From contig JAAFKJ010000080.1 of the NCBI GenBank assembly GCA_021399395.1, positions 1-30,090 of the forward strand: 30,090 nt of DNA. The letters are read 5' to 3'. Below are positions 19,824 to 22,088 of this stretch, in pieces (the stretch's first letter is position 1; every line of letters begins with the position of its first letter). The position numbers and the translations under genes are program-made. The notes under the pieces are model-generated. The model had not been told where the DNA came from, ran no database searches, and saw only the letters and a list, made by a program, of their open reading frames with translations. The stretch is from Candidatus Heimdallarchaeota archaeon. GTDB lineage: Archaea > Asgardarchaeota > Heimdallarchaeia > Heimdallarchaeales > Heimdallarchaeaceae.

Positions 19824-20381
19824 TTATCTATCTTCTAATACAATAGTACCTGCTAAATAATCCCCAACTCTTCGACCTTCTTCATTACACAATGGCACAA
19901 TATAGTCTATTCCAAAGAGAACACCTAAACATAAAGTTCTGACACATGATTGACCTGTTGTTATTGGTTGTCCTGTGTCATAGTCAACTACTCTGATATT
20001 GAGCATTGATTTTCCAAAAGACTTCCCTTTTTCAGGAATAACATCTCTGAAACACCAAAGTGGCGGACATAAATTGTATAAGACACTGTCTATAAGTAAA
20101 GCAAGGCAACGATCCATATAACTTGCTTTGAATTGGATATAGTTCGCTGGTAAGACTGCTTGTGGACCTGGTTGAGCTTGTGGATATGGTGCTGGTTGTA
20201 CTCGATCATAAGGGCCTGATTGAACTGGTGCATAAGGACCAGATTGGGCTGGTGCGGGGGTTTGCTGAGCTTTAGGCGCAGGAACAGATTCTTCTAATAG
20301 TTTGTGACCACAATTCAAACAAAACTTGTCTTCTGGTGCAATAGAAGACCCACAATTTGGACAGAAATACTTTTTCGACAT
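19824..20381 (-). CDS. Zinc-ribbon + Pro/Gln-rich linker + RDD domain membrane protein
   Basis: CPNCG…FCLNCG, QSGPY/QPAPY repeats, RCLALLID, GKSFGKSMLNIRVV and RRVGDYLAGTIV. Confidence 0.88.
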   Translation of the reverse strand: MSKKYFCPNCGSSIAPEDKFCLNCGHKLLEESVPAPKAQQTPAPAQSGPYAPVQSGPYDRVQPAPYPQAQPGPQAVLPANYIQFKASYMDRCLALLIDSVLYNLCPPLWCFRDVIPEKGKSFGKSMLNIRVVDYDTGQPITTGQSCVRTLCLGVLFGIDYIVPLCNEEGRRVGDYLAGTIVLEDR

Positions 20382-20444
20382 TTAGTGAGACACCTTTCGT
20401 TAATATTTATACTGTTAGAATATTTAAGGGTATTTTAATCAAGA

Positions 20445-20718
20445 TGATGAGTTTTTGTCATGTTGGCATGTTAGGCAAACATGGTTGAGCATATTTAGTA
20501 GCAGATGTGAGTGTCATTCCTTGTGAATCTACACACACCCTACAGGGGTACATCACGTACCCTCCTACCCCGTTCACACTACAAGTAGTGCTTTCGGATC
20601 GCTTGTTTCCCATTCTTGATGGGTATAGTGGAAAGGGTTCCATTTCTCTTGCAACTTGACTACAATCCCCTGTGGGAGGTGGTCGCATAGGTTACTTGAG
20701 CGGCAAACCTCACTCCTA
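20445..20718 (-). ncRNA. Candidate structured non-coding RNA of unknown family (~275 nt)
   Basis: GC-richer intergenic island with at least seven hairpins plus a long-range helix (20538-20545 with 20670-20676). Minus-strand TTTATA at 20739-20744 lies ~25 nt upstream. Confidence 0.6.
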
Positions 20719-20864
20719 TTTTATACTGATTTTTTGACTATAAATACCCAGTAATATCTTACTTTCAGTCTTCTTTCAAAGAGATTTGTCGTAAGATTAA
20801 TATGACTATATGACAAATTTACTTTATAAAATCTTTCTCGATTGTTGGCGTTCTTATCTAAAAA

Positions 20865-22088
20865 CTAATTTGATTGTTTTATAATTTTCTTATAAATTTT
20901 TACAAGATTTTTTCCTATAATTGCATAATCGTAATTCTTCAAAGCATGATTTTGTGATTTATATGCTATTTCCTCACTAATTTTCTTATTATGCACAATT
21001 TGAAGCACTTTATCTACTATTTGCTCTCTTTTATTCGGAGGATATAACCAACCACTATCAGGAGGTAACATCTCGTTCATAGGTGGTCGATCCATAGCTA
21101 TTACTGGCAATCCGGATGCCATAGCTTCGATTAATGGGGTTCCAAAACTCCCTTCTCTTGAAGGATAGAGCAGAATGTTACTAACATGGTAAGCTAATAA
21201 CAATTCTTCATCTTTTATGTAACCTGTTATTGTGATTGCATCTTCAATTTTCAAATCAACGACTTTTTCTTTAATATCTTTTAGAAGTGGTCCGTCTCCA
21301 ATTATTAAGAAATGCGTATCAGGTTGTCTCTTAAGAATTTCAGGAAAATATTCAATAACATCGAGTTGAGATTTACGTGTTATAAAGGGCCCTTGTAGTA
21401 AAATGGTTGTTTTATCTTGAGTTAGATCATATTTATCTCTAAATTCTTCAGTATCTTCTATTTTTGAAATTTGAGAGAATTTCTTGCAATTCAGAGCATG
21501 TTGAACTAAAATAACTTTGTCTTCAGTTTTACTTGGTAATCGTTTGACTTTATCTAGTAATGACTTTGAATTAGTTATAATAATGTCACAATATTTAACA
21601 ATTCTTCTAAGAAGTTTGGAATAAGGTCGTTTGACCCACAATCTAGATTTAAAATTGCCTGTTGTTACAGCTCCATGAATGGAAACAATTAATGGGATAG
21701 CCAGTTCTTCCTTCTTCTTCGCAATGGCAAAAGAAAGGGCTGAAACTTCCATTGCATGAATGAGTGAGAATTCTTTTTCAGCTGAAAGTTCAGTGAAAAC
21801 ATCAAATGCTTCCTTAGAGAATTTTCTGTGGTTTTTAGCATTAAAATTTGTTAGGGTACTATAAGCTCCTCTAGCTGAAATTTGTTCAGGTAAAAGATAA
21901 AAATTAATATTTTCTCTGTTCATCAATTCATCGTCAGAAGACAACGCAGTTGTTGTTGCGATGTGGATTTCTATATCTTGATTTGCTAAAGCTTGAATTA
22001 AAGAATAGGCATATCTGCGAAGTCCAGCCATAGGGCCTATATATGGTGGTCCTATCTCTATCGTAGAGACAAAGATGGAGAAATCCAT
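20865..22088 (-). CDS. Glycosyltransferase family 4 (GT-B)
   Basis: FLIIGDGPL, ITGYI and YPSREGSFGTPLIEAMASGLPVIA; N-terminal GT4 domain. Confidence 0.92.
   Translation of the reverse strand: MDFSIFVSTIEIGPPYIGPMAGLRRYAYSLIQALANQDIEIHIATTTALSSDDELMNRENINFYLLPEQISARGAYSTLTNFNAKNHRKFSKEAFDVFTELSAEKEFSLIHAMEVSALSFAIAKKKEELAIPLIVSIHGAVTTGNFKSRLWVKRPYSKLLRRIVKYCDIIITNSKSLLDKVKRLPSKTEDKVILVQHALNCKKFSQISKIEDTEEFRDKYDLTQDKTTILLQGPFITRKSQLDVIEYFPEILKRQPDTHFLIIGDGPLLKDIKEKVVDLKIEDAITITGYIKDEELLLAYHVSNILLYPSREGSFGTPLIEAMASGLPVIAMDRPPMNEMLPPDSGWLYPPNKREQIVDKVLQIVHNKKISEEIAYKSQNHALKNYDYAIIGKNLVKIYKKIIKQSN

What the first reader, a model, noticed from the sequence alone, without database searches (positions are those of the whole stretch)
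20445..20718. Unannotated multi-hairpin RNA with its own promoter
Seen (minus-strand RNA, + coordinates): hairpins UUGUAG/UUGCAA (20649-65), UGGAA/UUCCA (20629-42), CCCAU/AUGGG (20609-23), CACUA/UAGUG (20577-90, enclosed by CCG/CGG) and GGGUAC/GUACCC (20546-62). These are enclosed by a long-range helix CCCACAG/CUGU(A)GGG (20670-76 with 20538-45), forming a multibranch junction. Further stems: GUGUG…CACAU (~20505-38), CAUGUU/AACAUG, a 5' GGAG…CUCC arm, and possible 5'/3' end pairing GUGAG/CUCAU. TTTATA lies ~25 nt upstream. The downstream RDD gene has its own TATA-like element, so this looks like a standalone transcript. I could not find the SRP helix-8 motif, RNase P CR-I/CR-V, tRNA or 5S signatures. 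Inference: a novel or highly diverged structured ncRNA.
Basis: partly seen in the sequence, partly recalled or inferred. Interest (0 to 1): 0.75.

Follow-up and report, generated by a model that had tools for sequence, protein, structure and literature searches.

The report
Guide-RNA-only relic of a TnpB transposon
The hairpin-rich stretch is a 382-base miniature mobile element that has lost its TnpB nuclease gene but kept that gene's promoter and guide-RNA scaffold, so it is a new family of a known kind and not a new class of RNA.

Summary
The region is real and structured, but it is not a unique cellular ncRNA. It is one copy of a dispersed repeat: 33 nhmmer hits in its own genome and matches in 27 of 61 related genomes.

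Its 3' 163 nt (20606-20444, minus strand) are homologous to the last ~165 nt of TnpB genes (NF040570, 145-150 bits). That is where TnpB guide RNAs (omegaRNAs) are encoded.

The upstream part, including the TATA box, is homologous to the left end and promoter of the full-length TnpB insertion sequences. The ~112-nt 5' module is a diverged piece from the middle of tnpB.

Fourteen genomes of the genus have both flanking genes next to each other without the element. In the three read across the junction, the insertion lies directly 3' of TTTAT with no duplication.

Covariation supports four stems and a pseudoknot. The pseudoknot pairs a hairpin loop with the last 6 nt before the flank, as in the solved ISDra2 omegaRNA.

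Expression could not be tested. Best reading: a TnpB-less omegaRNA gene used in trans.

The parts
20826..20830 (-). TTTAT target/TAM-like motif immediately 5' of the element's left end
   Evidence: Empty sites in G021, G017 and G001 read ...GAGAAAGATTTTTAT|TC... with no element. The own-genome left ends listed mostly show TTAT, with a few variants, at the same distance from the conserved TTTGTCA.
20719..20825 (-). Left end (LE) of the element with the inherited tnpB promoter region
   Evidence: Aligns with the LE of full-length TnpB elements on C15, C131, C161, C170 and C106, and with other deletion derivatives. An LE profile finds 18 copies in the own genome.
20739..20744 (-). TATA box (TTTATA), about 23 nt upstream of the conserved RNA start
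   Evidence: Kept in the long copies and in full-length elements. In the full-length elements the tnpB start codon sits at the corresponding distance. Function is inferred, not shown.
20607..20718 (-). 5' module of the predicted RNA, a diverged remnant of the middle of tnpB (codons for ..IDLG..LVTFVDNLGNQPIV.KDHGK..)
   Evidence: A profile of the module hits tnpB interiors at one fixed position. This holds in the own genome and in 16 of 49 TnpB loci, with 0 hits in the reversed control. The joint alignment is collinear.
20658..20684 (-). Hairpin H-b (GACCAC...GUAGUC, with inner UC/GA pairs)
   Evidence: 98.0% of cells paired in 51 sequences (20 mini-elements and 31 tnpB genes). Four pairs changed on both sides, for example GAUAAC/GUUAUC in tnpB against GACCAC/GUGGUC in mini-elements.
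20444..20606 (-). omegaRNA-scaffold block, homologous to the last ~165 nt of tnpB genes plus the right end (RE)
   Evidence: The block lies at the 3' end of tnpB in 37 of 49 named loci. It starts about where the TnpB profile match ends (residue ~386-390 of 424-436).
20569..20598 (-). Stem S1 (UCCG/CGGG outer, GCACUAC/GUAGUGU inner)
   Evidence: helices 1 and 2 are 98.2% and 95.8% paired, with 5 pairs changed on both sides.
20546..20562 (-). Stem-loop S2 (GGGUA-CGUGAUG-UACCC). Loop 20556-20551 is the 5' strand of the pseudoknot.
   Evidence: helix 3 is 99.5% paired (AU 25, GC 14 at one pair). Loop variants are listed.
20444..20449 (-). CAUCAU, the last 6 nt of the element and the 3' strand of the pseudoknot with the S2 loop
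   Evidence: GUGAUG/CAUCAU, GUGAUU/AAUCAU and GUGAAU/AUUCAU co-vary. The helix is 99.2% paired with 2 pairs changed on both sides.
20498..20543 (-). Stem S3 (closing GUAG/CUAC, inner GUGUG.../...CACAU arm)
   Evidence: The closing stem is 94.0% paired. The inner part differs between subfamilies.
20459..20483 (-). Subterminal RE hairpin S4 (CAUGUU ... AACAUG)
   Evidence: Compensatory versions appear in other copies (CCUUGU/ACAAGG, CUUUGUCA/UGACAAGG), read. No formal count was made.
20424..20443 (-). Predicted guide (flanking DNA directly after the RE: CUUGAUUAAAAUACCC...)
   Evidence: Inferred from its position, by analogy with TnpB omegaRNAs. The first 16 nt have their only perfect match in the assembled genome here. 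No listed site with up to 3 mismatches has TTAT beside it.
20458..20688 (-). 76-aa open frame, a remnant and not a gene
   Evidence: Its C-terminal half matches the TnpB tail (..VNGVGGYVMYP.RVCVD..). It has no Pfam family. Frames are not kept among the 21 copies.
20865..22088 (-). Upstream neighbour: family 4/group 1 glycosyltransferase (not part of the element)
   Evidence: Pfam PF00534, E 5.6e-31.
19824..20381 (-). Downstream neighbour: zinc-ribbon/RDD protein (not part of the element)
   Evidence: Pfam PF06271 and PF13240. Its upstream region (CCCTTAAATAT...) is present in the empty sites too.

Best explanation
Window 20825-20444 (minus strand, 382 nt) is a non-autonomous miniature derivative of an IS200/IS605-type, TnpB-only insertion sequence. 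It sits in an archaeon whose relatives' records are titled Candidatus Heimdallarchaeota.

The element keeps four things:
- the left end with the tnpB promoter;
- a ~112-nt remnant of the middle of tnpB that contains a conserved hairpin;
- the last ~163 nt of tnpB together with the right end, which in full-length elements encodes the omegaRNA scaffold;
- the transposon boundary itself.

The TnpB reading frame is gone.

Inferred mechanism: the inherited promoter drives an RNA of roughly 290 nt. It would start near 20718, run through the scaffold and continue into about 16-20 nt of flanking DNA, which serves as the guide. TnpB proteins made by full-length elements elsewhere in the genome would bind this RNA in trans. 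They would cut any copy of the locus that has lost the element, because there TTTAT lies next to the guide match. Recombination with a filled copy would then restore the element, the selfish retention shown for bacterial TnpB.

Shown here: the homology, the element boundaries, insertion without duplication next to TTTAT, multi-copy spread, loss of coding capacity, and a conserved fold that includes a guide-adjacent pseudoknot.

Inferred only: transcription, binding by TnpB, and cleavage.
For: 1. Repeat family. There are 33 nhmmer hits in the own genome. Matches occur in 27 of 61 related genomes, including 23 of 24 other genomes of the genus.

2. Link to tnpB. The short copies lie at the 3' ends of ORFs that score 144.9 and 149.8 bits on NF040570 guided_TnpB (cut-off 100). 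These ORFs also match Pfam OrfB_IS605 and Cas12f1-like_TNB. In 49 TnpB loci from named MAGs the block was found at the gene's 3' end in 37; most of the other 12 loci stop at a contig end before the 3' end of tnpB.

3. Inherited promoter. The left end and TATA box are homologous to those of full-length elements.

4. Insertion. The glycosyltransferase and RDD genes are adjacent in 14 other genomes of the genus (coordinates). Three junctions read base by base show ...TTTTTAT|TC... with no duplicated target.

5. Fold of the scaffold. On 41 scaffold copies, 97.5% of cells pair, against 30-49% when the partners are slid. Ten pairs changed on both sides, and 0 of 500 shuffles reach the observed values.

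6. Fold of the whole RNA. On 21 whole mini-elements, 95.2% of cells pair, 18 pairs changed on both sides, and no shuffle reached the observed value on 4 of 5 measures (23 of 500 on further pair types).

7. Pseudoknot. The S2 loop pairs with the last 6 nt before the flank and co-varies: GUGAUG/CAUCAU, GUGAUU/AAUCAU, GUGAAU/AUUCAU. In the solved ISDra2 omegaRNA, nucleotides -2 to -6 pair with -102 to -106 (PMC10097598, passages read). Here the partners are -1 to -6 and about -108 to -113.

8. RNA of this strand. Invariant G-U pairs on the given strand (U12:G45 in 41 of 41 rows; G63:U189 in 39 of 41) favour RNA of this strand over double-stranded or opposite-strand signals.

9. Trans-acting protein available. 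There are 22 TnpB matches in the own genome, 14 of them over the cut-off and none with an internal stop.

10. No coding capacity. No reading frame is kept among the 21 copies.

11. Precedent. Meers et al. write that PATE elements 'often encode omegaRNAs' that would need TnpB in trans (10.1101/2023.03.14.532601, passages read).
Against: - No expression data. No RNA run holds the stretch, so the transcript, its ends and its use by TnpB are all inferred.
- The single-sequence fold is not unusually stable (z = -1.08).
- No Y1 transposase (PF01797) was found in the own genome or in any of the 24 other genomes of the genus. How the element moved is therefore open. All are incomplete MAGs (72-92% complete).
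- Copies within the genome are only 74-84% identical to the window's copy. The family is old, and this copy could be a relic.
- Where a mini-element sits at the same locus in five closely related genomes, it is no better conserved (0.87-0.97 identity) than its flanks (0.81-0.97).
- The sequences are related, and many scaffold copies also code for the TnpB tail, so the covariation counts overstate independence.
- IS200/IS605 elements move as single-stranded DNA that also uses hairpins and short guide pairings. Part of the conserved pairing near the right end could serve transposition and not the RNA.
- DNA contigs from four runs showed no allele without the element. Contigs drop rare variants, so this says little.
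Confidence: 0.74

Rival explanations
1. It is an inert, decaying remnant of a TnpB insertion sequence. The deletions simply destroyed the element, and the surviving pieces have no present function. The conserved pairings are inherited from the time when the sequence was part of working elements.
For: Copies are 74-84% identical to the window's copy. The orthologous copy in five genomes is no more conserved than its flanks. No transposase was found in the genus. No expression data exist. Other, different deletion derivatives occur in the same genome, on C197, C174 and C132.
Against: The same two-deletion architecture occurs at different loci. There are 8 copies in the own genome by the 5'-module profile, and mini-elements come from 10 genomes in alignment A1. 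So it multiplied after it arose. Among these copies the stems keep pairing through compensatory changes while reading frames decay. The promoter and both ends are retained.
Confidence: 0.15
2. It is a host-domesticated or otherwise cellular regulatory RNA. Examples: a guide that directs TnpB or a dead relative to a fixed target, or a promoter-bearing insertion whose read-through changes expression of the downstream zinc-ribbon/RDD gene.
For: The element has the same orientation as the RDD gene. It ends about 63 nt before that gene's start codon, with no run of five or more T after the right end. TnpB relatives have been domesticated as RNA-guided repressors in bacteria (10.1101/2023.11.30.569447, passages read).
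Against: The insertion is absent from the same locus in 14 related genomes, so it is not a conserved part of that gene's control. The guide differs at every copy, because it is just the flank. In the five genomes that share one insertion, a 9-nt indel alters the first guide positions. The full-length TnpB ORFs keep IDLG and NADVNAA motifs, which from memory look like intact RuvC motifs; I did not test this.
Confidence: 0.07
3. It is a novel stand-alone structured ncRNA family unrelated to mobile elements, or a small protein gene (the 76-aa frame).
For: There is no Rfam match. An open frame of 76 aa exists.
Against: There is direct homology to the tnpB 3' end, the tnpB middle and the IS left end. 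The element is multi-copy and is a clean insertion. The frame has no Pfam family and is not kept among copies.
Confidence: 0.02

Closest known systems
TnpB omegaRNA (reRNA) of IS200/IS605 elements, e.g. ISDra2 (Karvelis 2021, seen only in a search listing; Nakagawa 2023, PMC10097598, passages read)
   Same: The homologous block overlaps the 3' end of tnpB and runs to the right end. The guide would be the flanking DNA. A pseudoknot joins the nucleotides just before the guide to a hairpin loop about 105-113 nt upstream. A short T-rich motif lies next to the left end.
   Different: There is no detectable sequence similarity to any curated family. The scaffold has an additional well-supported stem (S1) 5' of the pseudoknot hairpin. 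The window's copy has no tnpB and carries an extra 5' module. Binding and cleavage are untested.
PATEs, the protein-less IS200/IS605 derivatives that 'often encode omegaRNAs' (Meers et al., 10.1101/2023.03.14.532601, passages read)
   Same: It has left and right ends like those of resident TnpB elements and no protein gene. It would depend on TnpB, and on a transposase, supplied in trans.
   Different: Here the element keeps the archaeal tnpB promoter directly in front of the RNA. It also keeps a second piece from the middle of tnpB that is under nucleotide-level constraint. The host is an Asgard-related archaeon. The supplements and extended figures of that paper, which show their PATEs, could not be seen.
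Haloarchaeal sotRNAs (Rfam RF02656/RF02657), sense-overlapping transcripts of IS1341-type tnpB (named in PMC12558985, passages read)
   Same: These are archaeal RNAs that overlap the 3' end of TnpB-only elements and are now regarded as omegaRNAs.
   Different: The window gives no match to these or any other Rfam model, even at E <= 10. Those RNAs lie within intact tnpB genes.
MITEs of cut-and-paste transposons
   Same: Short, non-coding, multi-copy deletion derivatives.
   Different: There are no terminal inverted repeats of the usual kind and no target-site duplication. The ends are asymmetric, as in IS200/IS605.

Membership tests
TnpB omegaRNA | Encoded at the 3' end of tnpB, overlapping the ORF and reaching the transposon right end | tested here: met
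   Window 20606-20444 is homologous to the last ~165 nt of TnpB genes in the own genome and in 37 of 49 named loci. In the window itself the gene is deleted.
TnpB omegaRNA | Pseudoknot between guide-adjacent nucleotides and an upstream hairpin loop | tested here: met
   The helix between the S2 loop and the last 6 nt is 99.2% paired over 41 copies, with 2 pairs changed on both sides. The variants are listed. Geometry is comparable to ISDra2. This rests on covariation only.
TnpB omegaRNA | Guide is the DNA flanking the right end, and the target lies beside the motif found at the left-end flank (TAM) | tested here: inconclusive
   Empty sites show TTTAT directly followed by the flank that would be the guide match. 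That TTTAT is the TAM of these TnpBs is inferred.
TnpB omegaRNA | Transcribed, bound by TnpB and supporting RNA-guided DNA cleavage | not testable with these tools
   No RNA holder was listed.
IS200/IS605 non-autonomous element (PATE-like) | Insertion 3' of a short specific motif without target-site duplication | tested here: met
   Three empty sites were read at base level. Both flanks are adjacent in 14 genomes.
IS200/IS605 non-autonomous element (PATE-like) | Left and right ends homologous to those of a resident full-length element | tested here: met
IS200/IS605 non-autonomous element (PATE-like) | No protein-coding gene | tested here: met
   There is no conserved frame in 21 copies, and the 76-aa frame has no family.
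IS200/IS605 non-autonomous element (PATE-like) | A Y1 (HUH) TnpA transposase available in trans | tested here: not met
   PF01797 gives 0 matches in the own genome and in 0 of 24 other genomes of the genus. It is present in 4 of 6 genomes of sister genera. All are incomplete MAGs, so absence is not proven. Filing the element under this family rests on the other features.
Any Rfam family (including sotRNA RF02656/RF02657, SRP RNA, RNase P RNA) | Score at or above the family's gathering threshold | tested here: not met
   There are 0 matches at gathering in the window. At E <= 10 there are only three weak hits, all in or overlapping the upstream region 20687-20830. RNase P and SRP RNAs are on other contigs.

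The most novel reading that the evidence does not exclude
The mini-element may be more than a stripped transposon. It may carry the complete RNA that this TnpB lineage needs, in two parts.

The hairpin from the middle of tnpB (H-b) is under nucleotide-level constraint inside intact genes. Synonymous diversity there is 0.20-0.29, against a mean of 0.446. It is kept, with compensatory changes, in the protein-less elements. A 4-bp pairing between the 5' module and the S3 loop also co-varies (helix 1).

On this reading the hairpin is a second functional module of the guide RNA, or a TnpB binding, processing or autoregulation site. The mini-elements would then be RNA-only parasites of TnpB elements. 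They would persist in a genus where no TnpA transposase is detectable, mainly through TnpB-driven retention.
Probability: 0.2. Interest if true: 0.7.

Novelty: new member of a known kind. Interest (0 to 1): 0.42.

Why it matters
It turns an 'unknown structured RNA' into an annotated mobile element, with exact boundaries, a target motif and a testable guide.

It gives a covariation-supported fold, including the guide-adjacent pseudoknot, for the omegaRNA of a TnpB lineage in relatives of Heimdallarchaeota. I found no paper treating TnpB or its RNA in that group. The search for TnpB, Heimdallarchae and Asgard listed one paper with all three terms, a review on Sulfolobales. The Heimdallarchaeum mobilome paper PMC8813620 does not contain IS605, IS200, OrfB or MITE.

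Protein-less, promoter-driven guide-RNA elements are natural experiments. They show which parts of a TnpB element are needed at the RNA level. Here they point to an unexpected constrained hairpin in the middle of the gene.

The apparent lack of TnpA across 25 genomes of the genus bears on how TnpB-only elements persist.

Tried and rejected
- SRP RNA or RNase P RNA: rejected. Both are elsewhere in the genome.
- tRNA or tmRNA: none in the window.
- Rfam at permissive thresholds: only weak SNORD58, TtnuHACA28 and psRNA6 hits in or overlapping the upstream region 20687-20830, taken as chance.
- Small protein: rejected.
- Expression: no RNA holder listed.
- Laying the contigs of four DNA runs showed summed depth about 20-fold higher over 20512-20613 than over the flanks. 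Contigs broke inside the repeat, and no joint skipped the element. This gives no evidence on excision.
- Excess conservation of an orthologous mini-element over its flanks: not seen. The five genomes are too close.
- Serine-recombinase (IS607-type) mobilisation: 4 resolvase-domain hits in the genome. One lies near a weak TnpB-like hit on C195. None was linked to this family, and I did not follow it further.
- Other targets of the predicted guide: the first search used a guide displaced by 3 nt through a coordinate slip. It was repeated correctly and found no TTAT-flanked site.
- I built no covariance model and did no protein fold or complex prediction. They were not needed.
- Supplementary files of papers were not opened. 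The extended figures and supplements of Meers et al. on PATEs may show similar elements.
Full report
**What is there.** On the minus strand, 20718-20444 reads as a 275-nt stretch with raised G+C: 0.44 against about 0.25-0.33 on its upstream side. A TTTATA box lies at 20744-20739. Rfam finds nothing at gathering scores in the whole window and only three weak hits in or overlapping the upstream region (20687-20830) at E <= 10. No tRNA or tmRNA is found. The minimum-free-energy fold of the single sequence is not unusual: z = -1.08, and 28 of 200 shuffles fold as well. Archaeal RNase P RNA (165.3 bits, contig C55) and SRP RNA (95.7 bits, contig C129) are elsewhere in the genome. The neighbours are a group-1 glycosyltransferase (20865-22088) and a zinc-ribbon/RDD protein (19824-20381), both on the minus strand.

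**It is a dispersed repeat.**
- A DNA search found the region in 27 of 61 genomes (own genome included). It was in 23 of 24 other genomes of the same genus and in 2 of 2 of a sister genus, mostly in many copies and often at contig ends.
- nhmmer finds 33 hits in the own 2.8-Mb, 82%-complete genome.
- Copies fall into two classes. 'Long' copies of about 340-390 nt resemble the window's copy along their whole length, including the TATA box and a block upstream of it. 'Short' copies match only the 3' ~165 nt, window 20606-20444.

**The short copies are the 3' ends of TnpB genes.**
- Upstream of the short copies the homology continues as a reading frame of 424-471 aa ending ...INADVNAAYNIL.KSDPKA...VNGVGGYVMYP....
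- Two such ORFs score 144.9 and 149.8 bits on NCBIfam NF040570 (RNA-guided endonuclease TnpB; cut-off 100). They also match Pfam OrfB_IS605 and Cas12f1-like_TNB. Weak matches to solved Cas12f/TnpB-type chains follow (E about 6e-4).
- The family profile ends at about residue 386-390. The remaining ~35-50 residues are encoded by the conserved 165-nt block.
- The own genome holds 22 TnpB matches, 14 of them over the cut-off.
- A scan of species-representative genomes with one of these TnpBs returned 49 loci. Nearly all carry record titles 'Candidatus Heimdallarchaeota archaeon', so the organism is an Asgard-related archaeon.
- The block lies at the 3' end of tnpB in 37 of those 49 loci. Most of the other 12 stop at a contig end before the gene's 3' end.
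- This is the position at which TnpB guide RNAs (omegaRNA, reRNA) are encoded. The window's 76-aa frame (20458-20688) is a remnant of the TnpB tail.

**The rest of the window's element also comes from the insertion sequence.**
- The ~107 nt upstream of the RNA start align with the left end of the full-length elements, including their TATA box. In full-length elements the tnpB start codon follows the TATA box at about the distance where the mini-element's conserved RNA begins.
- The ~112-nt 5' module (20718-20607) is a diverged piece from the middle of tnpB. A profile built from 21 long copies hits tnpB interiors in the own genome at one fixed place, about 520-595 nt upstream of the 3' block (best E 0.0067 genome-wide).
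- In the 49 independent loci the profile hits 16, all on the coding strand and at the same place. There were 0 hits on the reversed sequences.
- MAFFT aligns the two sets collinearly. The RNA's first bases, UAGG, fall on the codons of the ..IDLG.. motif.
- So the element is left end plus promoter, a mid-gene fragment, the 3' block and the right end. It is a derivative with two internal deletions. Other, different deletion derivatives exist on C197, C174 and C132.

**It is an insertion with exact boundaries.**
- In 14 other genomes of the genus the two flanking genes are matched on one contig with no room for the element between them (coordinates).
- At base level, three of these read ...GAGAAAGATTTTTAT|TC(T/A)TTT..ATTAAA.TACCCTTA.. 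The window reads ...GAGAAAGATTTTAT|AAAGTAAATTTGTCA...[element]...CTCATCAT|CTTGATTAAAATACCC...
- The element is therefore 20825-20444. It was inserted directly 3' of TTTAT, and no target is duplicated. This is the IS200/IS605 pattern.
- Most of the own-genome left ends listed have TTAT (a few show variants) at the same distance from the conserved TTTGTCA.
- A copy 91-92% identical to the window's lies at a different locus in another genome, G013:C40.

**Structure.**
- On 41 distinct scaffold copies, both TnpB-linked and protein-less, I counted a hand-drawn model: S1 outer and inner, S2, the S3 closing stem and a pseudoknot. Of the cells, 97.5% form standard pairs, against 30-49% when partners are slid by 1-3 columns. 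Ten of 26 pairs changed on both sides (59 cells), and 0 of 500 shuffles reach the observed values.
- The pseudoknot joins the 7-nt loop of S2 to the last six nucleotides of the element. It co-varies as GUGAUG/CAUCAU, GUGAUU/AAUCAU and GUGAAU/AUUCAU, with GUGGUU/AAUCAU and GUGAUG/UAUCAU as wobble variants. The helix is 99.2% paired.
- In the cryo-EM structure of ISDra2 TnpB, omegaRNA nucleotides -2 to -6 pair with -102 to -106, which lie within the span of stem 1. The authors call this pseudoknot conserved among Cas12 guide RNAs (PMC10097598, passages read). Here the partners are -1 to -6 and about -108 to -113.
- On the 21 long copies from 10 genomes, the model extended by the 5'-module helices H-a and H-b and by a 4-bp long-range pairing gives 95.2% paired cells. 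Eighteen pairs changed on both sides; no shuffle reached the observed value on 4 of 5 measures, and 23 of 500 did on further pair types.
- Near-invariant G-U pairs on the given strand fit an RNA of this strand.
None is supported.
- No reading frame is kept among the 21 copies.

**An unexpected detail: a constrained hairpin in the middle of tnpB.**
- Hairpin H-b of the 5' module also exists inside intact tnpB genes. There it reads GAUAAC...GUUAUC or GUUGUC in 32 of the 33 rows that gave sequence.
- Over 51 sequences (31 genes and 20 mini-elements) it is 98.0% paired, with four pairs changed on both sides. The genes have U-A and A-U where the mini-elements have C-G.
- A synonymous-site diversity profile of 29 tnpB genes has a mean of 0.446. 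It dips to 0.20-0.29 over residues 187-215, which is the 5' module. It dips to 0.20-0.36 from residue 369 to the last window at residue 410, which is the omegaRNA block. A smaller dip to 0.28 lies at residues 24-32.
- The mini-element has thus kept exactly the two parts of tnpB that are constrained at nucleotide level. What the mid-gene hairpin does is unknown.

**Mechanism.** The best reading is a TnpB-less omegaRNA gene in a non-autonomous element.
- The inherited promoter would give an RNA that ends in the flank, with guide CUUGAUUAAAAUACCC...
- TnpB from full-length elements would use this RNA in trans to cut an empty site, where TTTAT lies next to the guide match.
- The filled site is protected because the element separates the two.
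- The guide's only perfect match in the assembly is its own flank.
- This is the retention mechanism shown for bacterial TnpB. The existence of omegaRNA-bearing, protein-less PATEs has been noted (10.1101/2023.03.14.532601, passages read).
- Transcription, binding and cleavage are inferred. No RNA run holds the stretch.

**Open points.**
- No Y1 TnpA (PF01797) was found in the own genome or in the 24 other genomes of the genus. It was found in 4 of 6 genomes of sister genera. All are incomplete MAGs, so either the transposase escapes assembly, comes from elsewhere, or was lost.
- Copies are old (74-84% identity to the window's copy).
- An orthologous copy in five close genomes is not better conserved than its flanks.
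- Some pairings near the right end may serve single-strand DNA transposition and not the RNA.

**Novelty.** This is a new family of a known kind (omegaRNA of TnpB; PATE-like element). It is not in Rfam. I found it in no paper that I could search (passages only, supplements closed).

Noticed in passing
tnpB genes of the family, e.g. L033:294-1604 (-), residues ~187-215; window equivalent 20607-20718: There is a nucleotide-level constrained segment with a conserved hairpin (GAUAAC/GUUAUC) in the middle of intact tnpB genes, far upstream of the omegaRNA block. Synonymous diversity is 0.20-0.29 against a mean of 0.446. A smaller dip lies at residues 24-32. Its function is unknown.
   Followed up: partly
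genus g1 (G000-G024) versus sister genera g2-g5: No Y1 TnpA (PF01797) was found in any of 25 genomes of the genus, although TnpB elements and their derivatives are multi-copy there. It is present in 4 of 6 genomes of sister genera.
   Followed up: partly
TnpB ORFs on G000 C15, C131, C170, C161, C106: The region where TnpB usually has zinc-ribbon cysteines (recalled) reads ..YTSKSSFLDNE...RGLFTS..GH.INAD.. It has no cysteine, or only one. This would be a TNB domain that may have lost its zinc site.
   Followed up: no
G000 C197:6177-6640, C174:91996-92540, C132:9667-9833: Other, independent deletion derivatives of the same insertion sequence occur here. Examples are a 119-aa fusion of the first 18 TnpB residues to the last ~100, and a copy with the TATA box directly in front of the 3' block.
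   Followed up: partly
L013, L048, L049 versus L050, L051 (orthologous mini-element in five genomes): A 9-nt indel lies exactly at the right-end/flank junction (...AATCAT[AACATTTAT]TTCCC...). The extra piece ends in TTTAT, the target motif.
   Followed up: no
G000 C195:1027-3358: A resolvase-domain ORF (77.4 bits) lies near a weak TnpB-like match on the same strand, an IS607-like arrangement. Three more resolvase hits are on C28, C86 and C20.
   Followed up: no
L076 and L103: A 2.8-kb contig titled Candidatus Cloacimonadota bacterium carries a TnpB 77% identical to the query, plus the scaffold block. A contig titled Thorarchaeota carries a TnpB 68% identical. This may be a binning error or transfer between lineages.
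   Followed up: no
G000 C129:7838-8145: The genome's SRP RNA scores 95.7 bits, just under Rfam's gathering score of 96.5, so standard annotation would miss it.
   Followed up: no
window 20424-20443 and 20381-20423: The element ends about 63 nt before the start codon of the zinc-ribbon/RDD gene, in the same orientation and with no T-run after it. The predicted guide overlaps the conserved AAAATACCCTTAAATAT stretch upstream of that gene, so read-through into the gene is possible.
   Followed up: no
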